From contig NZ_CP043314.1 in the NCBI RefSeq assembly GCF_008189525.1, positions 480,001 through 512,000 of the forward strand: DNA of 32,000 nucleotides, read 5' to 3'. The position numbers and the translations under genes are program-made. Below, one piece after another: positions 1 through 29,910 of the stretch (position 1 is its first letter; each line of letters opens with the position of its first letter). Source of the stretch: Candidatus Saccharimonadota bacterium (GTDB taxonomy: Bacteria; Pseudomonadota; Alphaproteobacteria; CAJXXZ01; 1604HC). Under the pieces are notes generated by a model, which was given only the letters and a program-made list of their open reading frames with translations, had not been told where the DNA came from and did no database searches.

Positions 1-2686
<2,686 letters not shown>

Positions 2687-2799
2687 AATTTTAAAATTGG
2701 CTTTATTGAATAATTTGTTTAAACTTTTTAAACGTAAAATTGAAAATAAAAAAGGATAACACGCCAGCTATTAAAGACAAATAGGATATAAAATCCTAG
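2687..2799 (-). other. 16S-23S internal transcribed spacer, ~113 bp, with no tRNA genes
   Basis: AT-rich sequence lies between the 16S 3' end (GGATCACCTCCTTTC, rc of ~2800-2814) and the 23S 5' end. It is too short and too AT-rich to hold a tRNA, and no cloverleaf is recognisable. Confidence 0.85.
2748..2776 (-). other. 3' arm of the 16S processing stem (RNase III-type helix), located in the ITS
   Basis: Plus-strand AAAAAAGGATAACACGCCAGCTATTAAAG is an inverted repeat of 4322-4349. In the minus-strand transcript the two arms pair over 28 positions: 23 Watson-Crick pairs, 4 G-U pairs and 1 mismatch, counted by hand. Confidence 0.65.
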
Positions 2800-4299
<1,500 letters not shown>

Positions 4300-9620: not shown

Positions 9621-10157
9621 CTATCTTACAAACCTATTTACTAATCCAAAAGGTAAAGTTCCTTTTTTTCTATAAGAAGGCCATTTACTTTTCAATTCTG
9701 CGCTTTCTTTTTCAAGGCACTTGATTTCAACGTTAGCAACTCCTTGTTTTTCAATTCCTAAAATTCTGGCAGCACCACGAGATAAATCTATTATTCTTCT
9801 GTCTCCCTTTTTTACAAAAGGCCCTCTATCAGTAGCTATTAAAACCACTTCTTTTTTTGTTCCTGGGATAGAAACTTTCACTATAGATGGCAAAGGAAGT
9901 CTAGGATGAGCGCACGTCATATCCCACTGATTAAAACACACTCCACTGGCAGTTTTTCTACCATGAAATTTATCTCCATAGAAAGATGCAATCCCTTTTT
10001 CTTTCAAAGAGTAATGCTTTTGTGGGGTTATTTTGAACGACCCTTGGGTGTTTTTAATTTTATAAGGCTTAGCAAATTCTCTGGGATGAGGGACTTCATT
10101 CCACTCCTTCACAGAACATCCAAATAAAAATAAAGCAAAGAACACTATATAATGCAT
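9621..10157 (-). CDS. rlpA: RlpA-like lipoprotein (DPBB domain only, no C-terminal SPOR domain)
   Basis: The signal peptide with lipobox is MHYIVFFALFLFGC. GIASFYGDKFHGRKTASGVCFNQWDMTCAHPRLPLPSIVKVSIPGTKKEVVLIATDRGPF...RIIDLSRGAARILG matches the RlpA double-psi beta-barrel consensus. Confidence 0.85.
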   Translation of the reverse strand: MHYIVFFALFLFGCSVKEWNEVPHPREFAKPYKIKNTQGSFKITPQKHYSLKEKGIASFYGDKFHGRKTASGVCFNQWDMTCAHPRLPLPSIVKVSIPGTKKEVVLIATDRGPFVKKGDRRIIDLSRGAARILGIEKQGVANVEIKCLEKESAELKSKWPSYRKKGTLPFGLVNRFVR

Positions 10158-13173: not shown

Positions 13174-13957
13174 CAGTTAAAATATGCACTTTTCCATCAT
13201 AACCAACGTAAATTGTATGCTCGAATTGGGCTGCATCACTTCCATCCTTAGTAACTGTAGTCCACCCATCCTTTAGTTCTTTAAAATCCTCTTCTCCATT
13301 TACTATTATAGGCTCTACTGTAAAAAACATTCCTGGGACTATCTTCCCTAATTTATGCTTTGGATCAAAATGATAAATAAAAGGCTTCTCATGCATTGAC
13401 ATTCCTATACCATGCCCACAAAATTCTTTAACAATTTTAAATGATCCCTGACTTAAAACATATTTTTCTATTGCTATTCCTATTTCTTTTAAATCTTTAC
13501 CTATTTCTACAGACTGTATTCCTATTTCCATAGCTTTTTTAGAGACTTCTACTAATTTTTTCCTTTTATCACTAACACTGCCTATCATGAAAGTTCTACT
13601 AGAATCAGAATGCCACCCATCTATCTCTGCCACCACATCAACATTTACTATATCTCCATCTTTTATGATTCTATCAGAAGGAACTCCATGACAGACAACT
13701 TCATTTACAGATATGCATGATGCTGCTGGGTATCCTTGATAACCTTTACATGTTGGTCTTGCTCCACAGGATTTTATATAATCTTCACAAATTTTATCTA
13801 CTTCTTTTGTTGTCAACCCAGCTTTTATTTTAGATTCTACTTCTTTTAAAGTATTTAATACAATTGCAGAAGATTTTTTCATTTTATCCAAACAGTCAGG
13901 ATTATATACTTTAATACCTTTACTATTCAATTCAAACAATTTATTCATATTATCCAT
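13166..13957 (-). CDS. map: Methionine aminopeptidase, type I
   Basis: VVCHGVP, DGDIVNVDV, GWHSDSSRTF, GHGIGMSMHE, FTVEP and QFEHT are present, which are the metal-ligand blocks of MetAP1. It overlaps radC by 8 nt. Confidence 0.93.
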   Translation of the reverse strand: MDNMNKLFELNSKGIKVYNPDCLDKMKKSSAIVLNTLKEVESKIKAGLTTKEVDKICEDYIKSCGARPTCKGYQGYPAASCISVNEVVCHGVPSDRIIKDGDIVNVDVVAEIDGWHSDSSRTFMIGSVSDKRKKLVEVSKKAMEIGIQSVEIGKDLKEIGIAIEKYVLSQGSFKIVKEFCGHGIGMSMHEKPFIYHFDPKHKLGKIVPGMFFTVEPIIVNGEEDFKELKDGWTTVTKDGSDAAQFEHTIYVGYDGKVHILTDG

Positions 13958-14480
13958 GATGATTTATTTTAGACCAATAATCAAATATTACACTTAATCC
14001 TTGTTTAAGCAGCTTTATATCCTTGTTCCCTATTGATAAAAGCTCTTTTCTCATTTTATTTTCTACTATAACTTTAAAAACAGTCATTTCTACTGCATTA
14101 GATTCACAAATCAAAATTTGCTTTATCTTTTTCCATTTCTTTAGTATTTTAACTTCGAAAGACTGCACATTATCTGATGTTTTGATGTTAGAAGAAGATT
14201 TTTCAGAAAGTTTGCAAGAAGAAAAATTAGCAACACAAGGTCCTCCAGTCAGATATATAGACTTTCTTGCTAACTTTTCATAAAATAACCCTGCTTCATA
14301 TTCTTCCTTATTAATCTTACCTACCCTGTAAATAAACTCTAAGGTTGATAGGTTTTCACACCTAGAAGCTTCATTTGGTTTAAAGACCTGATTGCTTAAT
14401 GGGGTAATATTTTTCTTAGGTCTTCCTTTTTGAACCTTTTTACAAACATAAGAATTAGCAGATAGATTATAAGAATACAT
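13950..14480 (-). CDS. Hypothetical protein (176 aa), 8-nt overlap with map
   Basis: An intact ORF in an operon-like chain, with AAAGG upstream of the ATG. It has an N-terminal basic KKVQKGRPKK segment. I recognise no family confidently. There is a loose resemblance, from memory only, to alphaproteobacterial DUF6456-type proteins (LEFIYRVGKINKEEYEAGLFYEKL). Confidence 0.5.
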   Translation of the reverse strand: MYSYNLSANSYVCKKVQKGRPKKNITPLSNQVFKPNEASRCENLSTLEFIYRVGKINKEEYEAGLFYEKLARKSIYLTGGPCVANFSSCKLSEKSSSNIKTSDNVQSFEVKILKKWKKIKQILICESNAVEMTVFKVIVENKMRKELLSIGNKDIKLLKQGLSVIFDYWSKINHHG

Positions 14481-14534: not shown

Positions 14535-15485
14535 TTAATTAGAGTTATATTTCTTTACCTTTTTAAACTCATCATGCTCTGAAACAATCTGATTCATTTT
14601 TTTAGAAAACAAAAGGGTTTGCAGAAGAATCATAGATTCGTCATAGCTGATCTGTTTTTTCTGTTTAGATTTTAGATAGAAAACTCCCCATAATCCATTG
14701 TGCTTATTATTTTTACCAGAAATAGCAAATGGAGTTTGAGTTATAGATCCAGAATTAAGATTAGATATAGATTTGGATGCTAAAGTACCTAAATCATAAT
14801 CTAGCTGAGTTACAAGTTTTTCAACATAAGAAACATTTTTATTATCAGACTCTATTGAATATTTCTTTAAATTGTCTTCAAATATTTTTTCAAAAGGCTC
14901 TTTTTTAGATTTTGCATCATGGTTTATTGCTTTTATAACTGAATTTGCATCATCTTTAGTTCTAGAAATCAGTAGCATTCCTATAATTCTCTCATTAACT
15001 AATTCATTTTTTATAGAATTATATAATTTTTTCAATTCTAAATCATCTTTTCTTACTTCTTTTAAAACACTCTCTTGGAAAAGCTTCATTTTTACTTGAT
15101 TATTTGCTCTTATGAACTCTTTTTTATATTTATCATCTTTATCATACCCTTTGTTTTCAGCAATAAACTTCATTATTTTCTGTTTTATTATCAAATTAAG
15201 TACTTTTTCTATCACTTCAGAAACCTTCTTTACATCAGAATCTTGAGATGCTTTTAGAAATTGCTCAGAAAGAGATTTATTTGCATTAATGAATTTTATA
15301 ACTTCTGAATATGTTATTTCTTTTCCAACAACAACAGCAAGAACTTTTGATTTATTTAACTTGCTTTTATATTGAGAGCCTTTATCTAACAAACTTTCTT
15401 TACTTTTACTGTCAGAAAAACAAGTTTTTCCAAAAAGCACGCTAAGAACAAAAACAAAAAAAACAGAATTCATTTTTCTTATCAT
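14535..15485 (-). CDS. Secreted SurA/Plp-like chaperone with a degenerate parvulin-like region
   Basis: It has a signal peptide (MIRKMNSVFFVFVLSVLFGKTCFS) and a SurA-N-like start (VLAVVVGKEITYSEV). The overall layout resembles the Rickettsia parvulin-like protein Plp. The parvulin His/Gly signatures are not conserved: IIGMLLI replaces the His-containing first strand, and GLWGVFYL replaces fGyHiI. A strong AGGAGG RBS is present. Confidence 0.5.
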   Translation of the reverse strand: MIRKMNSVFFVFVLSVLFGKTCFSDSKSKESLLDKGSQYKSKLNKSKVLAVVVGKEITYSEVIKFINANKSLSEQFLKASQDSDVKKVSEVIEKVLNLIIKQKIMKFIAENKGYDKDDKYKKEFIRANNQVKMKLFQESVLKEVRKDDLELKKLYNSIKNELVNERIIGMLLISRTKDDANSVIKAINHDAKSKKEPFEKIFEDNLKKYSIESDNKNVSYVEKLVTQLDYDLGTLASKSISNLNSGSITQTPFAISGKNNKHNGLWGVFYLKSKQKKQISYDESMILLQTLLFSKKMNQIVSEHDEFKKVKKYNSN

Positions 15486-15589: not shown

Positions 15590-18500
15590 CTAAGCTATCA
15601 TATCACTTAGAATGCTATTTTCCATGTCATTTTTCCATGAATCTTCTAAGTTCCTAGAAACAGATCCAGTACCTGCAGGAAGCAACTTACCTGTTATCAT
15701 ACTTTCTTTCATACCTCTCAAGAAATCTATTGAGTTATGAAGAGCTGCATCAGTCAAAACTCTAGCAGTATCCTGGAATGAAGCTGCTGCAAAGAATGAG
15801 CTAGATTCAGAGATAGATATTTTAGTAATACCTTGCAAGACTCTTCTGAATTTGACTAGCTCTTTTCCTTGATCTATAAGAATGTTATTTACAGAATTCA
15901 AAATTCTTATAGAAACATACTCACCTTTCAAGAATGTACTATCCCCAGCATCTTCTACTTCAGCATGGCTTATCATTCTTCTTAGAATAACTTCTATATG
16001 CTTGTCATTGATTTCTATACCTTGAGCTCTATAAACCTGTTGGACGTCTTCTATATAGTTAGTAACCATACTTTTCAGCCCTAAGATTTTTAAAGTGTCC
16101 TGATGGTGAACTTGTCCGTCTACCAAGATTTCTCCCTTTGAAACAAAATCACCTTCATGAACTATAGTATTTCTATCTTTAGGAACTATGTATTCACTCT
16201 CCAGACCTTCCTTAGATTTTACTATAATTCTCTTTTTAGACCTATAATCCTTACCAAACCTTACTTGTCCATCTAATTCGCTCAATATAGCAGTTACTTT
16301 AGGTTGCCTTGCTTCGAAAAGTTCTGCAATTCTAGGCAAACCACCTACAATGTCTTGAGCTTTCAATACTTCTTGACTTCTGCTTGATATTACATCACCA
16401 GGTTCGACAAAATCTCCATCCTTAACTTGGATAAAGTCATTGACAGCCAATTTATGCTCAAAAACGTTTCCATCAGACTTTAGAACAGGGCTTCCTTTTT
16501 CATCTACAAAAATTATAGAAGGAGACATTGCACTTCTTTTGCTCATCTTAGAAAGATCAGATACTAAGTAGGTCTCAGCTCCTGTTGATTCATCGAAAAT
16601 TGTTTTAAGAGAAACTCCTTCTACCAAATCATTGTATTTAACATAAGCCCTTATTGAAGAAAGGAATGGAGTAGCATATGGGTTCCATTCTGCGACTCTG
16701 GTTCCTTTCTTGATTTTATCGTTTTCATTCACAAAAACCTTTGCTCCATAAGATATTTTATGAGATGTTACACCTTTTTTACCTTTAAGCTTCACATAAC
16801 CATTTCTGTTAGAAACAATCTTGTAATCTTTCTTGTCATAGAACTTAACATTTTCAAAGAAAACTTCAGAATCTTCTTCAGAATCTATTAAAGTCTCTTC
16901 AGAAAGGCTTTGAACAGCACCACCTTGGTGGAATGTTCTCATAGTAAGCTGAGTTCCTGGCTCTCCAATAGATTGAGCAGCAACAACACCAGAAGCTTCA
17001 CCAGCCTGAACTAATGTAAGTTCTGCTAGGTCATAACCATAACATTTTGGACATATTGTACTATTTAGGTTTGCACACAACACAGGTGATCTAATCTCAA
17101 TTGATTCTACCATTCTATCTTTTATGCTTTCCATGATTTTATCGTCCACAATATCATTTCTATTAGCAAGAATAGATCCATCTTCCAAAATTATATCTCT
17201 TGCAAGAGTTCTTCCAAATATTTTTTCTCTTATATATGTAGAAACTTTTTCACCCTTTACAAAGCATTCGACTTTAATGCCTTCTTCGGTACCACAATCT
17301 GTTCCCTTTATAATACAATCCTGAGAAACATCTACTAGTCTCCTTGTCAGGTAACCTGCATCAGCTGTTTTAAGAGCAATATCAGAAAGACCTTTTCTAG
17401 ATCCTTGAGCAGCTCTTACATATTCAGCAGATGTTGCTCCTTCTTTCAAGCTATTTGTAATAGGTATTTCCTGAATACTTCCATCAGAACGAGAAAGTAA
17501 CCCTCTACCTCCAGTAAGCTGCCTGATCTGTGTGCTGGATCCTCTAGCACCAGAATCCATCATCATGTAAACGGAGTTTAGTACACCATGTAAATCAGGT
17601 TTGGACATATGCTTATTCACAAGTTTAGCAATTTTATCTGAGAATAATGACCAAGCACTAATTACTTTGTTGTATCTTTCTCCTTCAGTTATAATACCTT
17701 CCATATACTGTGTCTTGTAATCTTCTACCAACTTCTTAGTGTCAGAAACAAGTTTGTTTTTTTCAGGTGGAATAATTAAGTCATCTTTACCAAATGATGA
17801 CCCTGATAAGGTAGCATGCAAGAAACCTAATCTCATCAAGTTATCCAAAAACTTCACATTAGTCTTATTATCGAAGATCAAATAAATTTGTTGCACTAAA
17901 TCAGATATATCAGAAGATTTGAAAACTTTATTAATCATAGAGAATTTAATTTTTTCATTCTTAGGCATTATTTCATAAAACTTCATTCTTCCTAAAGTAG
18001 TTACAGCCTTTTCTTTTTCTCCATTATTATCAACAACAGTAGTAAAAGGAGAGTTATAAGTTATTATACCTCTTTCCAGAGCATGCTCTGCTTCAGATAT
18101 ATTAGATATTAATAATGACTTATCTTCTTTTTCGTTCATCAAAGTCAAACAGTATATACCCAAAACCATGTCTTTAGATGGCTTGACTATAATTTTACCA
18201 CTAGAAGGGTTAAGCAGACATTTTGTAGACATCATAAGAACCTTAGCTTCTAATTGAGCTTCTATTGACAAAGGAATATGTATAGCCATTTGATCACCAT
18301 CAAAATCAGCGTTAAATGCTGAACATACTAATGGATGTAACTTGATTGCTTTACCTTCTACCAAAATAGGGTTAAAAGCCTGAATTCCTAATCTATGCAA
18401 GGTTGGCGCTCTATTCAGAAGAACAGGATGTCCTTTAATAACTTCTTCTAAGACATCCCATACCTCAGGTCTTTTATGATCTACCATTGGAGTTGCATCT

Positions 18501-21500
18501 CTTACAGTAGAAGCGAAACCTATGTATACCAATCTAGCAAGAACAAAAGGCTTGAAAAGCTCAAGTGCCATCTCTTTAGGAAGACCGCATTGATCTAATT
18601 TCAAATCAGGTCCGACAACAATAACAGATCTTCCAGAATAGTCTACTCTCTTACCAAGAAGGTTTTGTCTAAATATACCATCTTTACCTTTTAGTACATC
18701 AGTCAAAGATTTAAGAACTCTATTACCATTTGCTCCAAGGATAGGCCTGCTTTTTCTACTATTATCTAACAAAGCATCAAAAGATTCCTGTAACATTCGC
18801 ATTTCATTTTTAATCATAATTTTAGGAGACATTAGGGCAATCAATCTTTGCAATCTTTTGTTTCTATTTATGATTCTTCTGTATAGATCGTTAATATCTG
18901 AAGAAGCGAATCTACCACCATCTAATAAGACAAGAGGTCTCAAATCTGGAGGCAACACAGGCAATACTCTAGTAATCATATACTCTGGTCTAGTGTTAGA
19001 CTTTTGGAAACCTGAGAAGATTTTCAATTTTCTAATCAGTTTCTTTCTTTCATCTTCTTTTACACAATTATTCAACTTCTCTGTTATCAAAGATATTTCA
19101 TTTTCTATATCTATATTCTTTAATAGAAGCTCAAGTGCTTGAGGTCCTGTTTCTGCAAAGAAGTTTTCATCTCCAGTTTCTTCAGAAGCTCTATGGTATT
19201 CTGATTCAGAGAGTATTTGCTTGTAAGAATAAATCGAACTTGCTGGCTCTATTATAATATAACTATCAAATCTCAGTATACTTTCCATATCTTTAACTGA
19301 TATATCAAGAACTATAGACATTCTGCTAGGAAGTGCTTTTGTAAACCATATATGAGCAACAGGAGCCGCTAATTTTACGTGACCCATTCTCTTTCTTCTC
19401 ACAGAAGAAGAAGTAACTAATACTCCACAAGAAGGACATGTCAATCCTTGGAATTTTGTTCCTTTGTATTTTCCACATTTACATTCGTAATCAGTAACAG
19501 GACCAAAAACTCTTTCAGAGAAAAGTCCATCTTTATGAGGTTTCAAAGTTCTATAGTGAATTGTTTCAGGTTCTAGAATTTCACCACTAGACCAACCTAG
19601 AATATCTCTTTCTGAAGCTAAAGATATTCTAAGAGCATCTACACCTTCTATATCTTGTATTCTTTGTGAAAGCAAAGATTCTCCTTGCTTTTCTAAACAC
19701 TCTACGTTTAAACAAAGTGATCTCAATTGGTAAAGAAGCACTCTAAATGACTCTGGAATTCCTGGAGAATCAAATACTTCTTTTCCATGACTTATGTCTT
19801 GGAACACTCTTATTCTGGTTGTTAAATCATCAGATTTGGATGTCAAACATTCTCTAGCTATATATGCAGCACCATAACCTTGCAGTGCCCATACCTCCAT
19901 TTCACCAAATCTCTGACCACCGAAATTAGATTTTCCACCTAAAGGTTGTTGAGTAATAAGGCTGTAAGGCCCTACTGATCTAGCATGTATCTTTGAGTCT
20001 ACAAAGTGATGCAATTGCATTATATGCATTACTCCTACAGTAATTTTTCTCTGGAAAGGAAGACCTGTATATCCATCATACAAAACTTCTTTACCTGAAG
20101 GATCACAATCTGCCAATTTCAACATATTAGAAATATCTACATCTTTTGCTCCATCAAATGCAGGAGAAGAAAATGGAACACCTTTTCTTAGATTTCTAGC
20201 GAAATCCATAAACTCTTCATCATTTTTTGATTTAACAATTTTAGATTCTTGCTCTTTGTTGTAAACTTTATCAACAAAATTTCTCAAGTCAGATATAGAT
20301 AGTTTTCCTTCATTATATCCACTTAACATTTTGTTTATCTTTTTACCCAAATTCAAAGCTGCCCAACCTAAGTGAGTCTCAAAAATCTGACCTAAGTTCA
20401 TTCTAGATGAAATACCAAGAGAACTAAACAGAAGCTCAACAGGCTCACCATCTTTTGTGAAAGGCATATCTTCTAAGTTCATAACTCTAGAAACAACACC
20501 TTTGTTACCGTGTCTTCCACAAATCTTATCACCAGGTTGAAGTTTTCTTTTCACAGCAATAAATACTTGAACAGAAACTCTTACTCCAGCAGGAAGGTCA
20601 TCACCTTCTTTTATTTTCTTTATCTCTTTATCTGCTTTTTTATCTATAAATTTAATTTTATTTTCATATTCTTGCAAAATATTTTCTATTTCAGGAACAT
20701 TAGTAGAAGCCAAATCAAGTAAAGAAACTTCTTTGTTCAAAATGTGTTTAAGAATATCACCTAATACTAAGTTCTTAGAATCTATTTCTATTTCTTTCTT
20801 CTTACACTTTGCTTTCAAAGCTTTGGAAGCAGAAATTTTTACATTACTATAATCAGACAACTTACTAACATAAGAGCTACCAATTATATTAATTTGCTCA
20901 CTCTTCTCTTCTAGTATTTTCTGTATACTTTCTTCTTCTATGAAAGTTGCTCTTTCATTTTTATCTACACCTTTTCTGGTGAATATTCTTACATCAACAA
21001 CTGTTCCAGAGACTCCAGGCGGTACTTTTAGGGAGCTATCTATAACATCAGAAGCTTTATCTCCAAAAAGAGCTTTCAGCAATCTTTCTGTTGCGTTGAA
21101 GTTACCCTCTGCTTTTGGAGTTATCCTACCTACAAGAACATCTCCATGTGAAACCTTAGCTCCAATATTTACGATACCACTTTCATCTAAATGTCTTAAA
21201 AATTCATCACTAATTTTAGGCACATCTCTTGTAACTTGCTCTAATCCTTGCTTAATCTCTTTTGCAGATATTTCATATTTCTCTATATGGAATGAAGAAA
21301 AGTCATTAGCAAGCTTTGAGGATATAAGAACAGCATCTTCATAGTTACCACCTCTCCAAGAAAGAAAAGCAACTTTTACGTTCTTACCCAAAGAAAGCTC
21401 ACCATTTCTCATAGAAGGACCATCAGCCATAATTTGACCTTTTTCTACACTATCACCAACATCAACTAAACAAGTTTGGTTAATACAAGTAGAATCATTT

Positions 21501-23761
21501 GTTCTTTCAAATTTTCTAAGATTATAAGTATTAACATCTCCATCATCAGCTTTAACAAATATAGATGAAGCATCAACTTTCATAACTGTTCCAGGCTTAA
21601 CAGAAACCATACCAGCTCCAGAATCTCTTACTACTATACCCTCAATACCTGTTCCTACCAAAGGAGTATCCGGCCTTATAAGAGGAACAGCCTGTCTTTG
21701 CATGTTTGCACCCATCAAAGCTCTTCCAGCATCGTTATGTTCTATAAACGGAATCAATGAAGAAGCTACAGATATAATCTGCTTTGGAGAAACATCTATG
21801 TAATCTATTTCTTCAGGAGAAACAACAACATATTCATTGTTCTTTCTACAGCTAACGAGGTTAGATTTAAAAGTTCCATCTTCTTTAAGGATAGATCTAT
21901 CTGCATGAGCTATAATATGTTTTTTATCATCAATTGAAGATAAGTATTCTATATTTTTCTGTATAATTCCATTTTTAACTGGATAATAAGGAGTTGAAAT
22001 AAATCCATATTCATTTACTTTACTAAATATAGTTAGAGAGCTAATCAAACCAAGATTAGGCCCTTCAGGTGTTTCTACAGCACAAATTCTTCCGTAATGT
22101 GTAGGGTGCAAATCTCTAACTTCAAGCCAAGCTTTTTCTTTAGAAAAACCACCTGGTCCAAATGAGGACAATCTTCTTTTATGGCTTATTTCTGAAAGTG
22201 GGTTAGTTTGATCCATAAATTGAGAAAGTGGAGATGTACAGAAAAATTCCTTTATTACTCCAGTAAATGATTTAGAGTTCAAAACAAAATCAGAAGGCAT
22301 AGCTGTTTCCATATCTACAGAACCAAATCTATCTTTAATTGATTTTGCAAATCTACCCAGAGCTATTCTGCATTGATTTTCTACTAATTCTCCTACAGAT
22401 CTTACTCTTCTATTTTCAAGACTATCTATATCATCTACAGATCCTTTGCCATTTTTAAGCTCTATCAACATTTTAATAGACTTCAATATATCTACTTTTG
22501 TTAAGGTAAGCTTATTTATATCTATATCTAGCCCTAGCCTGCTATTAAGTTTTACACGCCCTACTTCAGAAAGAGTGTAATAGTTAGGATCTGAAAATAA
22601 AGATCTGTACAAAGAGTATACAACATCCATTCTAGGTCTTTCACCAGGTCTTATTGTGTTGTATATCACAACCATAGCTTCATCTCTGCTAGAACATGGA
22701 TGAGCAATAATACTGTCTATCAAAAAAGATGTTTGAGAAAAATGATCTACTAATACACCTTCAAACTCTGCAAAATTGTAATCATAAAAAGAAACTAAGG
22801 AGTCAGATGCCTTTATAGAACCTTCTTCACATTTCATATCATGTGCAAAATAAATATCTGGAAGAGATTCTTTATTAAACCAATATGATTTCACATTCTC
22901 TAATGCTTTCAGCTTCATTTTTGTTATTTTTGATCCAGCAGGAACAATAACTTCTTTAGTATCAAAATCTATAAGATCAAAAGAAAGCTTAAGTCCTTGA
23001 TAAATAGATGCATTTAAGAAAGCTTCAACTCCATTTTCATGCTTCACAAACTTAGAAACATTATAGAATTCATAAATTATATCAGAAACTGACATTCCTG
23101 TAGAATCAGAGCCTGTATCGCCTCCTGATAAAGACATTAAAAATACAGAAAGAGGTATTTTTTTATTTTTATCTATTCTAACGTTTATTATATCATTGTG
23201 ATCGAACTCTATATCTATCCAAGAACCTCTGTAAGGTATAATTCTAACAGAGTGTATTGACCTTCCAGTTTTATTGTCTATGTCCAAGAAAACTCCTGGA
23301 GATCTATGAACCTGAGAAACTACAACTCTTTCTGATCCATTGATTACAAATGTTCCAGATTTTGTCATAAAAGGCATTTCACCAATACAAACACTTTGTT
23401 CTCTTAAATCTTTTACTTTTAATCCATCTGATTCAGGATCAAAAATAGCCAATCTAAGGAAAATACTTATAACACCACCATAAGTCAATCCTTTTATTTT
23501 TGCTTCTTCTTCAGTGTAAATAGAATCTGATATTCCATATTGGACAAATTCTAGCTTCAAAGTTTTTGAAGAATTAAATATAGGAAAAAACTCACTAAAA
23601 ACGGATTGCAATCCTTTGTTTTTTCTTCTTTCAGGAAGAACATTAAGTTGCAAAAACTTATCATAAGATTCTTTCTGCAATTGTATAAGATCTGGTACTT
23701 TCAGATCACGTTCACTTATGTTAGCGAAAGATTTACGAAGAAAATTATTGCCATTGCTCAT
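15590..23761 (-). CDS. rpoBC: Fused RNA polymerase beta-beta' subunit (RpoB ~aa 1-1358, ~16-aa linker, RpoC ~aa 1375-2723)
   Basis: One uninterrupted 2723-codon ORF. Beta motifs present include [20 protein letters not shown] and the C-terminal [22 protein letters not shown]. These are followed in frame by the beta' N-terminus [33 protein letters not shown]. The beta' part also has the zinc motif CKCGKY..CPSCGV and the catalytic [16 protein letters not shown] RBS lies upstream of the ATG at 23761. Confidence 0.95.
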   Translation of the reverse strand: [2723 protein letters not shown]

Positions 23762-27107: not shown

Positions 27108-27318
27108 CCAACTAGCCTAATTATCCTATAACATAAATTCTTAAACTTCAATCCAAAGCATTGCATACAGATCAAAAAATTAAATGCATATACCCTCAAT
27201 GAACTAGATTGGAAATCACTAAAAAACAGGAAAAAGTAAATAAAAATAAAAGAACCTATCGTTTTATTTACCTTTTTTAAACCTTTTTATCTGTATAAAA
27301 CTCACAGAAAAGGCAATC

Positions 27319-27780
27319 ATGAACAAAGAACTAATAGAAACAATAAAAAACAATATAGGAAACAAAATAGATTCAAATAAATGCACAAAAAAAGGCGTAA
27401 AACTTTCTAATGCACTGATTTTCGTTTCTGTGCTTGCAATATCTAGCTTTGCTTTAGGTCAGTACTATGCATCTTTACTTTTTAAAAAAACAGAGATGAG
27501 TTCCTATAAAGATCAAAACTTAGAAAGCGAGATACAAACAAGTCAAAACAATAAAAAACAAAAATATGAAGTAAGGCTAGGAAAATTTGCTAATGAAATT
27601 GATGCAAAAGATTTCTCTACTAAATTTGGAATATTATCTCCTATAGTTTCAAAAGATAAAGATGGAGCTTATGTAGTAAAAGTCAAAGGCACGCATACAA
27701 TAAAAGAAGCAATTTCTACAGCAAATGCAATAAAGAAAGAAATGAAGATTTTAGCAAGCATTGCAGAGACTATTCAATGA
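27319..27780 (+). CDS. Bitopic membrane protein with a C-terminal SPOR (peptidoglycan-binding) domain
   Basis: A short cytoplasmic N-terminus is followed by one TM helix (LSNALIFVSVLAISSFALGQYYASLLF). Then comes KYEVRLGKFANEIDAKDFSTKFGILSPIVSKDKDGAYVVKVKGTHTIKEAISTANAIKKEM. This matches the SPOR pattern (Y.vQlGaf.n...A..l...l.........dg.yrV.vGp......A......lk). Its stop overlaps the next ORF start (ATGA at 27777-27780). Confidence 0.6.
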   Translation: MNKELIETIKNNIGNKIDSNKCTKKGVKLSNALIFVSVLAISSFALGQYYASLLFKKTEMSSYKDQNLESEIQTSQNNKKQKYEVRLGKFANEIDAKDFSTKFGILSPIVSKDKDGAYVVKVKGTHTIKEAISTANAIKKEMKILASIAETIQ

Positions 27781-27875
27781 ACGTAAAGAACTGTAACAAA
27801 TGTATAAATGAGAAAAACAACAAACAAACTAGCCTAATTAGAAGTTATGCAATTTGCAAAAAGATCTTCTCATCA

Positions 27876-28427
27876 ATGTATAAAACTATTATGCATTCTT
27901 CAAGTAAAGCTTATAAAGTATCTACAGCTTTCATTGTTTTGTTTTTATTATCTGGATGTGAAAAATACAACTACGCAGAAAATTCACTACAAGCAGTAAG
28001 ATTTTTTTGTAATAGCGAAATGAATTCAGGCACTGCTATAGTCGTAGACATACTTCAAGTGTCTGACAATGCTTTGTTCGATAAACTAAAAGAAATGAAA
28101 TCTATAGACTATTTCTCTCAAAGGAAAAGTATTTTACAAACAAACATAAATGAAATAAAACTATGGTCTTTTGAACCAATTTCAGGGAACTGGACAGATC
28201 AATTCTTATTGAAAGGAACTTCTTGTAAAAGTTCGGGATTACTAGTTTTCATGAATTATAAAAACAGCTCCGAAAAAAATAGCTTCTCAATACCATTAGA
28301 TTATAAAAGTATAGATATAAAAATGGGAGAAAAATCAATTATAGAGTTTTCTGAATCTCAAAAAAGCGATGAACAAGTAAAGAGAGATCCAGAATCAATA
28401 GAGAGGATAAAAAATGATAGTATCTAA
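27876..28427 (+). CDS. tssJ: TssJ/SciN-like outer-membrane lipoprotein (type VI secretion membrane-complex component)
   Basis: A lipoprotein signal with lipobox VLFLLSGC is present. The mature part, ~120-150 aa, contains GTAIVVDILQVSDNALFDKLKEMKSIDYF ... SGLLVFMNYKNS. This resembles the TssJ/SciN pattern (spvvvrvYqLk....F..adf..L ... yvgVvAaYrd). The start is uncertain. The ORF is open from the ATG at 27777, which is ATGA-coupled to the upstream gene. Only the ATGs at 27876 or 27891 give a normal-length signal peptide. Confidence 0.55.
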   Translation: MYKTIMHSSSKAYKVSTAFIVLFLLSGCEKYNYAENSLQAVRFFCNSEMNSGTAIVVDILQVSDNALFDKLKEMKSIDYFSQRKSILQTNINEIKLWSFEPISGNWTDQFLLKGTSCKSSGLLVFMNYKNSSEKNSFSIPLDYKSIDIKMGEKSIIEFSESQKSDEQVKRDPESIERIKNDSI

Positions 28428-29712
28428 GTTCAAGTTCACACCATACAAAGTGCAATGGTACGAGGGAATGCCACTATCTCCTCATCACTTTCAGCAATCA
28501 GATCTCACAAATGAAAAGATGATGGGGTATTTAATATCTAAAACATCTCCTTATCATTGGGGGTTAATAGATATGGAGGTAGATAGCTCGAAAATAACTG
28601 AAGGAATAATATCTATAAATACAATTGAGGCAATAATGCCTGATAGGTCAATAATATTCTATCCTATTCATGATCAAGAAACTCTACATATAAAATTAGA
28701 AGAGGAAGATTTCAAAACAAGTAATGATCTAGACATTTTCTTAGTAAAACCTGAATCAAGGAACACTTATGATTCTCAGACTGTATCTCAAGGATATGAA
28801 TCAGTAACTGAAAAAGATGTTTTAGATCAAAACAATGAAGATCATCCTGCTTGTATTTTAAAATTGAAACCAAAATATCAGTTAGCAATAGGAGAAATTC
28901 CTAATAAGCATATTGGGATCCAAATAATGAAAATAAAAAATGGTATATCTGGAATACAAATCGCAGAGTTTGACCCACCTTGTATAAATATATCTAAAAC
29001 AAAAAATACTACATCAAAGATACAGGAACTAATCAAAGTATTAAGGAAGAAAACTTATTACATGCAAAATAACCTAAAACTAAACTCTGATAACAATGCA
29101 GAAGTAATGCACTCTATTTTCATGCAGGGAATAATACCTTTAGATCATATTTTAAATTCTAACTATGCACACCCTTATACATTATTCACCTCTTTGATAA
29201 ATTTACTTGCCCATATATCTGGATTGGATAAGACTATATTACTACAAGATATCCCTAAGTATAATCATAAAAATATCTTCAAAAGCTTCAAGCCATTGTT
29301 TAAGTTTATAAATAGTATTTTGGATTCAATTAAAGAGCCATATTCATTGAAGCAGTTCATAAACAAGGATGGAATCTTCTTTATAGACTTGCCCAAAGAA
29401 ACAGGAAACGCACTGTTTGTTTTAGTAAAAGATTATTCAATGAATTTCTCTGAAACAATGCAGTGGATAGAAAACGCAGTAATATCAACTCAGAGCATGC
29501 TAGAAGAAGCTCTAGAAACAAGAGTTCTTGGATTAAAAAGGGAATATGAAAAAACACAAGAAGATAGTCATGTGATTATAAAAATAAATACAGACGATAG
29601 GTTTTTCGTAAAGGGAGAAAAGCTTTGTATATATAATAGATCTGCTGATAAAAAACCATCAGAAATTTCTATAGTATCTTTCGCTAACTCATCTAATGAA
29701 CTTCCGAAGTAG
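28414..29712 (+). CDS. tssK: TssK/ImpJ/VasE-like type VI secretion baseplate protein
   Basis: 432 aa, against a typical TssK of ~440-450. The N-terminus KVQWYEGMPLSPHHFQQSDL...SPYHWGLIDMEVDSSKITEGIISINTIEAIMPDRSIIFYP matches the hallmark TssK N-terminus. That hallmark is vvWsEGMfL.PQHFQQ.dr......... .P..WGv..l.id...L..G.l.l....gi.PDGt.f..P. An AGAGAGG RBS lies 7 nt upstream, and the ORF overlaps the tssJ-like ORF by 14 nt. Confidence 0.75.
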   Translation: MIVSKFKFTPYKVQWYEGMPLSPHHFQQSDLTNEKMMGYLISKTSPYHWGLIDMEVDSSKITEGIISINTIEAIMPDRSIIFYPIHDQETLHIKLEEEDFKTSNDLDIFLVKPESRNTYDSQTVSQGYESVTEKDVLDQNNEDHPACILKLKPKYQLAIGEIPNKHIGIQIMKIKNGISGIQIAEFDPPCINISKTKNTTSKIQELIKVLRKKTYYMQNNLKLNSDNNAEVMHSIFMQGIIPLDHILNSNYAHPYTLFTSLINLLAHISGLDKTILLQDIPKYNHKNIFKSFKPLFKFINSILDSIKEPYSLKQFINKDGIFFIDLPKETGNALFVLVKDYSMNFSETMQWIENAVISTQSMLEEALETRVLGLKREYEKTQEDSHVIIKINTDDRFFVKGEKLCIYNRSADKKPSEISIVSFANSSNELPK

Positions 29713-29910
29713 AGAAATATACTAGCTATTCATTTGAGTTAAGTAATTATATTTTTGCGAGCGCACTATAAATACCCTGTTAAAATGATTATTAATACAA
29801 TGATAATCGAAATACATCTTAGTAATAGAGAGAATTTCAGATAAACTTTAAAGCTTTATAAGTTTATTTATTAGACAAACAAGCATTATATAAAAGAATA
29901 AAGTAAGCTA

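What the first reader, a model, noticed from the sequence alone, without database searches (positions are those of the whole stretch)
27319..29712. Orphan, translationally coupled SPOR / TssJ-like / TssK-like operon with no other T6SS genes nearby
Seen in sequence: three intact ORFs are chained by an ATGA overlap (27777-27780) and a 14-nt overlap (28414-27). The third has the hallmark TssK N-terminus (VQWYEGMPLSPHHFQQSD ... YHWGL ... PDRSIIFYP) and the right length at 432 aa. The second is a ~180-aa lipoprotein (lipobox LLSGC) with TssJ/SciN-like blocks. Established knowledge: in canonical T6SS-i loci tssJ-tssK are followed by tssL-tssM. TssJ works only as part of the TssJLM membrane complex, and TssK bridges that complex to the TssEFG-VgrG baseplate. 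Here the operon stops after tssK. Only 198 bp of non-coding DNA with stops in all frames follows, then a convergent MFS gene. No tssB/C, hcp, vgrG, tssL/M or clpV is present anywhere in the 32 kb. The locus is divergent from tRNA-Trp-secE-nusG, a core-genome neighbourhood. I see no compositional discontinuity by eye and no mobile-element scars. Inference: full-length ORFs persisting in a compact genome argue for selection. One possibility is a T6SS scattered in pieces around the chromosome. Another is a TssJ/TssK pair co-opted with a SPOR protein into an envelope-associated module not previously described.
Basis: partly seen in the sequence, partly recalled or inferred. Interest (0 to 1): 0.7.

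Follow-up and report, generated by a model that had tools for sequence, protein, structure and literature searches.

The report
Fragment of a dispersed type VI secretion system
The three genes are not an orphan module but the front end of an ancestral type VI secretion operon in the protist endosymbiont Candidatus Nesciobacter abundans, and its middle gene is a divergent copy of TssJ, the outer-membrane lipoprotein that published analyses call missing from this bacterial group.

Summary
Three intact, overlapping ORFs (27319-27780, 27777-28427, 28414-29712) encode a membrane-anchored SPOR protein, a lipoprotein and a bona fide TssK. No other T6SS gene lies in the 32 kb.

The window comes from Ca. 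Nesciobacter abundans (Holosporaceae, 616 kb genome). Its published gene list has tssBCEFGIKLM, vgrG and PAAR elsewhere in the genome, and dispersed T6SS genes are the documented norm in Holosporales. The "orphan / novel envelope module" reading is therefore not supported.

Across 76 related loci, larger alphaproteobacterial genomes carry SPOR-J-tssK-tssL-tssM-tssA as one block. The reduced endosymbionts keep only SPOR-J-K, in at least two confirmed different neighbourhoods.

What is new is modest:
- **Lipoprotein:** it has a TssJ fold (top 7 PDB fold hits are all TssJ) but fails the curated TssJ HMMs. It belongs to a large unmodelled family of at least 1,129 representatives. This explains why the literature reports TssJ as absent in Holosporales.
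- **SPOR gene:** it consistently travels with tssJ, with a 4-nt overlap in most loci. The partner TssL proteins in relatives lack a peptidoglycan-binding domain. This suggests a SPOR-type cell-wall anchor analogous to TagL, which I did not find described.

I could not independently verify tssL/tssM elsewhere in this genome; that point rests on the literature.

The parts
27108..27318 (.). Divergent intergenic region between tRNA-Trp/secE and the SPOR gene; presumed promoter region of the triplet (inferred only)
   Evidence: Coordinates. The consensus promoter scan found nothing above the shuffle expectation, so no promoter is shown.
27319..27780 (+). Gene for a bitopic inner-membrane SPOR-domain protein (153 aa): short K-rich N-terminus, TM helix at residues 29-56 (nt 27403-27486), short linker, C-terminal SPOR domain at residues ~81-150 (nt 27559-27768). 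Proposed T6SS-associated peptidoglycan anchor.
   Evidence: PF05036 at 22.8 bits against a cut-off of 21. Five of 6 close orthologues hit SPOR, best E 5.2e-7. Seven longer orthologues score 25.7-46 bits. hhalign to those gives probability 96.9%, E 1.7e-10. The AF2 C-terminal domain has block-mean pLDDT of 71-87, and the top 3 Foldseek hits are SPOR domains of CwlC and RlpA.
27777..28427 (+). Divergent tssJ: outer-membrane lipoprotein (216-aa ORF). Lipobox LSGC at nt 27948-27959, beta-sandwich domain at residues ~70-195 (nt 27984-28361). Alternative internal starts at ATG 27876 and 27891.
   Evidence: The lipobox residues L58, G60 and C61 are invariant in the four-orthologue alignment; G60 and C61 stay invariant in the 11-member alignment, where L58 is nearly so. 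The AF2 model has mean pLDDT 79.5, and 85-96 over most of the domain. The top 7 Foldseek PDB hits are all TssJ (3zhn E 3.4e-6, TM 0.65; 4a1r; 6ixh_A; 4y7o_C) and the 8th is Francisella IglE. The gene lies directly upstream of tssK-tssL-tssM in 26 loci and between tssG and tssK in L009. It has no Pfam or NCBIfam hit of its own; family members give only sub-threshold TIGR03352 hits.
27777..27780 (+). ATGA stop/start overlap between the SPOR gene and tssJ (translational coupling inferred)
   Evidence: Sequence. The same 4-nt overlap occurs in about 20 of about 30 SPOR-bearing loci, with GC from 28% to 49%.
28414..28427 (+). 14-nt overlap of the tssJ 3' end with the tssK start; SD-like GAGAGGA at 28401-28407
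   Evidence: Sequence. J-K overlaps or short gaps occur in most related loci.
28414..29712 (+). tssK (432 aa), the T6SS baseplate subunit that connects the baseplate to the membrane complex
   Evidence: TIGR03353 at 180.3 bits against a cut-off of 100. PF05936 E 2e-34. Solved TssK 5y0e E 1e-10. NCBI names it TssK.
29713..29910 (.). 198-bp non-coding spacer to the convergent MFS transporter gene; this is where tssL-tssM-tssA follow in less reduced relatives
   Evidence: No terminator-like hairpin was found on the + strand.

Best explanation
[quoted passage not shown] It is the surviving 5' half of an ancestral operon, SPOR-tssJ-tssK-tssL-tssM-tssA. The three genes are probably co-transcribed from the region divergent to tRNA-Trp/secE and are translationally coupled by their overlaps (inferred). 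TssK forms the baseplate wedge connector (shown by homology). The lipoprotein is a sequence-divergent TssJ that should be lipidated at Cys61, sit in the outer membrane and cap the periplasmic end of TssM (fold, lipobox and synteny shown; the TssM contact is inferred). The SPOR protein is an inner-membrane protein whose periplasmic SPOR domain most likely ties the TssJLM membrane complex to glycan strands of the cell wall. In that role it would do the job of the OmpA-type domain of 'evolved' TssL or of TagL, because the TssL proteins of this T6SS lineage are DotU-only (inferred from conserved operon membership and domain logic). TssL, TssM, TssBC, TssEFG, VgrG and PAAR are supplied from other loci (literature).
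For: Organism and genome: an exact match to GCA_960610765.1, a 616 kb contig, named N. abundans. T6SS elsewhere in the genome: Table S3 of George et al. lists tssBCEFGIKLM, vgrG and PAAR, and dispersed T6SS blocks including [tssK-tssL-tssM-tssA] are described for other Holosporales. TssK. TssJ: fold search, lipobox conservation, recurrent weak TIGR03352 hits as the only T6SS family found, and position upstream of tssK-tssL-tssM-tssA in 26 loci and tssG-J-tssK in L009. SPOR. Operon membership of the SPOR gene: it lies directly upstream of tssJ in about 27 loci, with a 4-nt overlap in most, while the left neighbour differs (tpiA in complete clusters, secE here, an integrase in L004/L006/L008). 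TssL in SPOR-bearing clusters is 259 aa and DotU-only. Precedent: 14 TssL homologues fused to a SPOR domain. Selection: all three ORFs are intact in six ~0.6 Mb genomes although dS is saturated, and dN < dS in every pair.
Against: I could not read the rest of the N. abundans genome, so tssL/tssM elsewhere rests on one published table. The window's lipoprotein has no hit to TIGR03352 or PF12790, and even a 147-sequence profile finds no solved TssJ by sequence. The SPOR gene sits at the edge of the cluster, not between T6SS genes. Its architecture is also that of division proteins such as FtsN and DedD. Its Pfam score in this genome is marginal, and the Foldseek E-values for the small domain are weak at 0.17-0.5. 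Many clusters of the same T6SS lineage (Azospirillum and others) lack the SPOR gene although their TssL is also DotU-only, so it is not universally required. Co-transcription is not shown, and no promoter or terminator was detected. Hcp is reported missing, so whether the machine fires at all is unknown.
Confidence: 0.75

Rival explanations
1. The SPOR protein is a housekeeping division protein (FtsN/DedD/DamX-like) that merely shares a promoter with tssJ-tssK. Only tssJ and tssK belong to the T6SS.
For: It has the same bitopic architecture with a C-terminal SPOR domain as division proteins. It sits at the border of the T6SS block, next to housekeeping tpiA or secE. Many sister clusters work without it. 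Longer orthologues have the long low-complexity linker typical of FtsN-like proteins.
Against: It stays fused to tssJ by a 4-nt overlap across GC contents of 28-49% and moves with tssJ-tssK into at least two other confirmed neighbourhoods. A division gene would be expected to keep its own context. SPOR fused directly to TssL exists elsewhere.
Confidence: 0.2
2. This is the first reader's novel reading: TssJ and TssK have been co-opted with a SPOR protein into a T6SS-independent envelope module.
For: The triplet stands alone, without tssL/tssM, in about 15 reduced genomes and is under purifying selection. Hcp, TssA and ClpV are reported absent in N. abundans, so a classical firing machine is questionable.
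Against: Most core T6SS genes are reported in the same genome. Dispersal is normal for Holosporales. The same three genes are contiguous with tssL-tssM-tssA in 10 loci. TssK keeps the conserved N-terminal domain that matches solved TssK structures.
Confidence: 0.04
3. The triplet is a decaying remnant with no current function.
For: The genome is extremely reduced, and several T6SS genes (hcp, tssA, clpV) are reported lost. The tssJ ORF has an odd N-terminal extension.
Against: All three ORFs are intact in six genomes whose synonymous sites are saturated. dN/dS is 0.07-0.5. The lipobox and core motifs are invariant.
Confidence: 0.03

Closest known systems
Dispersed T6SS of Holosporales (George et al. 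2019/2020, 10.1101/719211; Midha et al. 2021, PMC8163844)
   Same: It is the same organism and gene set. tssK was already annotated. T6SS genes are scattered over several loci, with a conserved [tssK-tssL-tssM-tssA] block in larger Holosporales genomes.
   Different: Here the block is additionally broken after tssK. It also extends upstream by a SPOR gene and a tssJ-like gene that those papers did not place there. George et al. and a 2025 review (PMC11909080) state that TssJ is missing. Midha et al. mention only an InterProScan 'tssJ-like' gene in Ca. Bodocaedibacter.
Canonical TssJ (EAEC SciN, P. aeruginosa TssJ1 3zhn, Serratia Lip 4a1r; TIGR03352 / PF12790)
   Same: It is a lipobox lipoprotein of about 155 mature residues with a transthyretin-like beta-sandwich carrying a helical insertion, and its gene lies immediately upstream of tssK-tssL-tssM.
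   Different: Sequence identity to solved TssJ is 11-16%. It falls below both curated models. It belongs to a separate family of at least 1,129 representatives at 50% identity that no Pfam model covers.
TagL / TagN / TagP / TagW and 'evolved' TssL (OmpA/Pal/MotB-type peptidoglycan anchors of T6SS)
   Same: It is an inner-membrane protein with a periplasmic peptidoglycan-binding domain, encoded in a T6SS operon whose TssL lacks such a domain.
   Different: The binding domain is SPOR (PF05036), which recognises glycan strands stripped of peptides, not an OmpA-like domain. It has one TM helix where TagL has three. No experiment has been done.
TssL-SPOR fusion proteins (Broms et al. 2012, PMC3326028)
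   Same: A SPOR domain is attached to the T6SS membrane complex.
   Different: There the SPOR domain is fused to the C-terminus of TssL/DotU. Here it is a separate small protein encoded upstream of tssJ.
FtsN / DedD / DamX division proteins
   Same: They share the bitopic topology with a C-terminal SPOR domain.
   Different: The operon context is tssJ-tssK rather than division or cell-wall genes. The linker is very short (about 25 residues) in the reduced genomes. The essential FtsN motif was not tested.

Membership tests
TssK (TIGR03353 / PF05936) | Score above the curated cut-off of the family model | tested here: met
   TIGR03353 at 180.3 bits against 100, and PF05936 at 119.6 bits against 23.4.
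TssK (TIGR03353 / PF05936) | Sequence similarity to experimentally solved TssK | tested here: met
   5y0e E 1e-10 over residues 11-308; also 5m30, 6giy and 6n38.
TssK (TIGR03353 / PF05936) | Genomic linkage to tssL-tssM in relatives | tested here: met
   Orthologues are followed by tssL-tssM(-tssA) in more than 30 loci.
TssK (TIGR03353 / PF05936) | Binds TssFG and the cytoplasmic domains of TssL/TssM | not testable with these tools
   This needs interaction assays or multimer modelling with the cognate partners, whose sequences I could not retrieve.
TssJ (TIGR03352 / PF12790 T6SS-SciN) | Score above the curated cut-off of the family model | tested here: not met
   The window protein has no hit. 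The best family members reach 16-20 bits against a cut-off of 31.6. Seven of 147 have E < 0.01. PF12790 hits none of 147. It is therefore not a member of these sequence-model families as currently drawn.
TssJ (TIGR03352 / PF12790 T6SS-SciN) | N-terminal lipoprotein signal with lipobox cysteine | tested here: met
   LLSGC. G60 and C61 are invariant in the 11-member alignment and L58 is nearly so (90% or more); C61 is nearly invariant in 147 sequences.
TssJ (TIGR03352 / PF12790 T6SS-SciN) | Transthyretin-like beta-sandwich fold matching solved TssJ | tested here: met
   The top 7 Foldseek hits are all TssJ, with probability 1.00, E 3.4e-6 to 6.9e-4 and target-normalised TM 0.55-0.65. IglE follows, then nothing below E 0.02. 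The model's pLDDT is 85-96 over most of the domain.
TssJ (TIGR03352 / PF12790 T6SS-SciN) | Gene position immediately upstream of tssK within tssJ-K-L-M | tested here: met
   J-K-L-M order in 26 loci, and tssG-J-tssK in L009.
TssJ (TIGR03352 / PF12790 T6SS-SciN) | Binds the C-terminal periplasmic domain of TssM | not testable with these tools
   The cognate TssM sequence was not retrievable, and no multimer prediction is available.
SPOR domain (PF05036) | Score above the Pfam gathering threshold | tested here: met
   The window protein scores 22.8 bits against 21, which is marginal. Orthologues score 25.7-46 bits. Twelve of 13 database relatives carry a precomputed PF05036 domain.
SPOR domain (PF05036) | RNP-like beta-alpha-beta-beta-alpha(-beta) fold similar to solved SPOR domains | tested here: inconclusive
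   The top 3 Foldseek hits are SPOR domains (1x60 probability 0.99, rmsd 1.9 A; 6i09 and 6i05 probability 0.9), but E is 0.17-0.5. The last strand is modelled as a helix.
SPOR domain (PF05036) | Binds denuded peptidoglycan glycan strands | not testable with these tools
   This needs a sacculus pull-down with and without amidase treatment.
T6SS peptidoglycan-binding accessory proteins (TagL/TagN/TagP/TagW) | OmpA/Pal/MotB-type domain (PF00691) | tested here: not met
   There is no PF00691 hit; the only domain found is SPOR. It is therefore not a member, although it may work like one.
T6SS peptidoglycan-binding accessory proteins (TagL/TagN/TagP/TagW) | Encoded in a T6SS operon whose TssL lacks a peptidoglycan-binding domain | tested here: met
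   In relatives, TssL is DotU-only at 259 aa in SPOR-J-K-L-M-A loci. The TssL of N. abundans itself was not examined.

The most novel reading that the evidence does not exclude
The small SPOR protein is a dedicated, previously uncatalogued T6SS accessory component ('SPOR-type Tag'). It docks the TssJLM membrane complex onto peptide-free glycan strands. Because such strands are made mainly at division sites, it may direct T6SS assembly to the septum or new poles in wall-poor intracellular bacteria. Together with the unmodelled TssJ family, this would define a distinct membrane-complex variant that is widespread in Alphaproteobacteria.
Probability: 0.2. Interest if true: 0.6.

Novelty: new variant of a known kind. 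Interest (0 to 1): 0.35.

Why it matters
Two publications (George et al. 2019/2020 and a 2025 Holosporales review) describe the Holosporales T6SS as 'non-standard' partly because TssJ appears to be absent, and they build functional speculation on that. A TssJ-fold lipoprotein encoded right next to tssK removes half of that argument; Hcp remains unaccounted for. It also shows that a large TssJ-like family is invisible to current Pfam and NCBIfam models, so 'TssJ-less' calls in other Alphaproteobacteria should be re-examined. The conserved SPOR partner offers a testable candidate for how this T6SS lineage, whose TssL lacks a cell-wall-binding domain, is fixed to peptidoglycan. None of this changes the basic picture: this is an ordinary, dispersed T6SS.

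Tried and rejected
- Sequence-only routes to TssJ failed. These were Pfam and NCBIfam on the window protein, phmmer and two family profiles against PDB sequences, and Pfam on 147 family members.
- The promoter and terminator scan gave fewer promoter-like sites than shuffles and no + strand terminator, so it is uninformative.
- I considered spending the last homology search on TssM from relatives to retrieve the N. abundans TssM. I rejected this because the divergent, AT-biased target would rank far below thousands of ordinary TssM proteins. Independent confirmation of tssL/tssM in this genome was therefore not obtained.
- The N. abundans genome did not appear among the genome-contig hits.
- I checked whether the unannotated window ORFs could be hidden T6SS parts. 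The 316-aa ORF is SurA/PEB4-like and the 176-aa ORF has no match.
- The two large unannotated ORFs just beyond the window gave no family hits.
- I checked whether the SPOR gene is embedded between T6SS genes in complete clusters. It is not; its upstream neighbour is tpiA.
- dN/dS is only qualitative because dS is saturated.
Full report
**1. Observation.** The three ORFs exist exactly as described: 27319-27780 (153 aa), 27777-28427 (216 aa) and 28414-29712 (432 aa). The ATGA overlap at 27777-27780 and the 14-nt overlap at 28414-28427 can be read directly in the sequence. A GAGAGGA Shine-Dalgarno-like motif lies just upstream of the third start. Downstream, 198 bp separate the third stop from a convergent MFS transporter gene. 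Upstream, the operon is divergent from tRNA-Trp, secE and nusG. GC content is flat at about 0.30. The rest of the window holds 23S and 16S rRNA, a fused rpoBC gene, ribosomal protein genes and other housekeeping genes. No other T6SS gene is present.

**2. Source.** The third protein matches, residue for residue, a protein on a 616,058-bp contig of assembly GCA_960610765.1. NCBI names it TssK of Candidatus Nesciobacter abundans. This organism is a member of the Holosporaceae. It is an endosymbiont of the diplonemid Diplonema japonicum.

**3. The three proteins.**

*TssK.* It is secure: TIGR03353 scores 180 bits against a cut-off of 100, PF05936 gives E 2e-34, and solved TssK 5y0e gives E 1e-10.

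*The lipoprotein.* The middle protein has no hit in Pfam, NCBIfam or PDB sequences. Its orthologues share a conserved lipobox: L58, G60 and C61 are invariant among the four closest orthologues, and G60 and C61 remain invariant in the 11-member alignment. They also share a mature part of about 155 residues. An AlphaFold2 model built on 11 family members is confident over the mature domain, with pLDDT of 85-96 over most of it. In a Foldseek search of the PDB, the first seven matches are all TssJ: P. aeruginosa TssJ1 (3zhn; E 3.4e-6, probability 1.00, target-normalised TM 0.65), Serratia Lip, and TssJ chains of the EAEC membrane-complex entries. The eighth is Francisella IglE, the TssJ counterpart of that system, and after that E exceeds 0.02. 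Family members give repeated sub-threshold hits to the TssJ model TIGR03352, and it is the only T6SS family they hit.

*The SPOR protein.* The first protein only just passes the Pfam SPOR threshold, at 22.8 bits against 21, but the family evidence is solid. Five of six close orthologues and seven of seven longer orthologues hit SPOR, at up to 46 bits. A profile-profile comparison aligns residues 81-150 to those domains with probability 96.9%. The AF2 model shows a TM helix at residues 29-56 and a C-terminal beta-alpha-beta-beta-alpha domain, whose three best fold matches are the SPOR domains of CwlC and RlpA.

**4. Is it an orphan?** No.
- George et al. (10.1101/719211) report a 'modified T6SS' in all diplonemid endosymbionts. 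Their Table S3 lists tssBCEFGIKLM, vgrG and PAAR for N. abundans; only tssA, hcp, clpV and tssJ were not found.
- Midha et al. (PMC8163844) state that in other Holosporales families the T6SS core genes lie at four or more locations in a conserved arrangement, one block being [tssK-tssL-tssM-tssA].
- I could not fetch the rest of this genome with the tools available, so this point rests on the literature.

**5. Where the triplet comes from.** I collected 76 loci around TssK relatives. I scanned their ORFs with HMMs built from my own alignments and with TssL, TssM and TssA from one relative.
- Ten loci have SPOR-J-tssK-tssL-tssM, nine of them with a detectable tssA as well. These are alphaproteobacterial and Holosporales MAGs.
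- About sixteen have J-tssK-tssL-tssM(-tssA) without the SPOR gene. These include Azospirillum, other Rhodospirillales, Rhodovibrio, Bryobacteraceae and a gammaproteobacterium.
- About fifteen distinct genomes have SPOR-J-tssK with nothing T6SS-related downstream. These include Nesciobacter, Cytomitobacter and other MAGs, several of them with genomes of about 0.6 Mb.
- One short contig has tssG-J-tssK.

The stand-alone triplet lies in at least two confirmed different neighbourhoods. One is secE-nusG on the left and MFS/ABC/cdsA on the right, as here. Another is ppiC and an integrase on the left and PBP1A-RF1 on the right. A third group of loci matched neither reference set, and their neighbours were not identified. 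In the complete clusters the left neighbour is a divergent tpiA. The SPOR gene therefore always travels with tssJ, and in about 20 of about 30 loci the two overlap by 4 nt, across GC contents of 28-49%. The simplest history is an ancestral operon SPOR-tssJ-tssK-tssL-tssM-tssA that was cut after tssK in the Holosporaceae-like reduced lineage.

**6. Selection.** Among six ~0.6 Mb genomes the three proteins are 31-70% identical. Synonymous sites are saturated (dS above 1), and dN is below dS in every pair, with omega between 0.07 and 0.5. These numbers are rough, but three ORFs staying intact over that distance argues against decay.

**7. The TssJ-like family.** An exhaustive HMMER search with the family profile found 1,129 representatives (clusters at 50% identity) at E <= 0.001 and 509 at E <= 1e-10, nearly all 150-190 aa long. 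Of the best 147, only seven touch TIGR03352 at E < 0.01, and none hits PF12790 or any other informative Pfam family. This explains why pipelines, and hence George et al. and the 2025 review PMC11909080, report TssJ as missing in Holosporales. Midha et al. mention one InterProScan 'tssJ-like' gene in Ca. Bodocaedibacter, so the idea is not wholly new. Strictly, the protein fails the sequence-model definition of TssJ, so I file it as a TssJ-fold, TssJ-position lipoprotein of an unmodelled subfamily.

**8. Mechanism.**

*Shown:* the homologies, the fold, the lipobox, the operon structure and the comparative synteny.

*Inferred:*
- The three genes are co-translated.
- The lipoprotein caps TssM in the outer membrane.
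- TssK links that complex to TssEFG-VgrG encoded elsewhere.
- The SPOR protein, inserted N-in with its SPOR domain in the periplasm, fixes the complex to the cell wall.

The last step is the weakest. In its favour:
- Operon membership of the SPOR gene is conserved.
- TssL in these clusters is DotU-only.
- T6SS loci with such 'ancestral' TssL usually carry a separate peptidoglycan binder such as TagL.
- Fourteen TssL-SPOR fusions are on record.

Against it:
- The gene is at the cluster edge.
- It looks like FtsN or DedD.
- Sister clusters lack it.

A 2026 catalogue of T6SS accessory genes lists only OmpA-type binders and no SPOR protein.

**9. Verdict.** The 'orphan / new module' interpretation is not supported; the 'scattered T6SS' alternative is supported. 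What remains of interest is an annotation-level correction (TssJ is present, and a large family lacks a model) and a plausible new SPOR-type accessory anchor. Interest is moderate to low (0.35), and the novelty class is a new variant of a known kind.

Noticed in passing
window 15590-23761 (-): rpoB and rpoC are fused into a single 2,723-aa ORF. The same fusion is present in Ca. Cytomitobacter (L002), but the related 558-kb MAG (L003) has a separately called 1,434-aa rpoC.
   Followed up: no
window 1-4297 (-): The 16S and 23S rRNA genes are adjacent, with a spacer of about 124 nt (2676-2799) that contains no tRNA gene.
   Followed up: no
window 9621-10157 (-): A 178-aa RlpA-like protein has only the DPBB_1 domain and no SPOR domain. 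E. coli RlpA is DPBB plus SPOR and cleaves peptide-free glycans, the ligand of SPOR domains (the RlpA comparison is from my own knowledge). There may be a functional link to the SPOR protein of the triplet.
   Followed up: no
window 27777-27890: The N. abundans tssJ ORF carries about 38-45 extra N-terminal codons that the orthologues aligned lack. Those begin with the signal peptide right at the ATGA overlap. Internal ATGs at 27876 and 27891 would give a normal lipoprotein signal peptide but would abolish the overlap coupling. By a rough estimate of my own from base composition, the frame staying open by chance has a probability of about 4%.
   Followed up: partly
L001 16997-18868 and 18865-20598 (record OY490516.1, about 4-7 kb beyond the window's right end): Two overlapping large ORFs (623 and 577 aa) have no Pfam or NCBIfam hit. 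They are absent from the syntenic position in Cytomitobacter (L002). They are possible lineage-specific secreted proteins or effectors.
   Followed up: partly
window 13950-14480 (-) and 14535-15485 (-): Two ORFs have no Pfam annotation. The 316-aa one resembles the SurA/PEB4-type chaperone Cbf2 (PDB 3rfw, E 2.6e-5). The 176-aa one has no detectable relative among solved structures.
   Followed up: partly
alignment A7 / proteins P0023-P0168; e.g. L020 9204-9911 (Azospirillum cavernae): The TssJ-like lipoprotein family upstream of tssK is large: 1,129 representatives at 50% identity. It includes Azospirillum and other free-living Rhodospirillales, and neither Pfam nor TIGR03352 captures it. T6SS clusters annotated as lacking TssJ may often carry it.
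   Followed up: yes
L005, L041, L048, L049 and the planctomycete loci L055-L076: These tssK-tssL(-tssM) clusters show no detectable member of this lipoprotein family upstream of tssK, even with the broad profile. They may truly lack TssJ or may use yet another lipoprotein.
   Followed up: no
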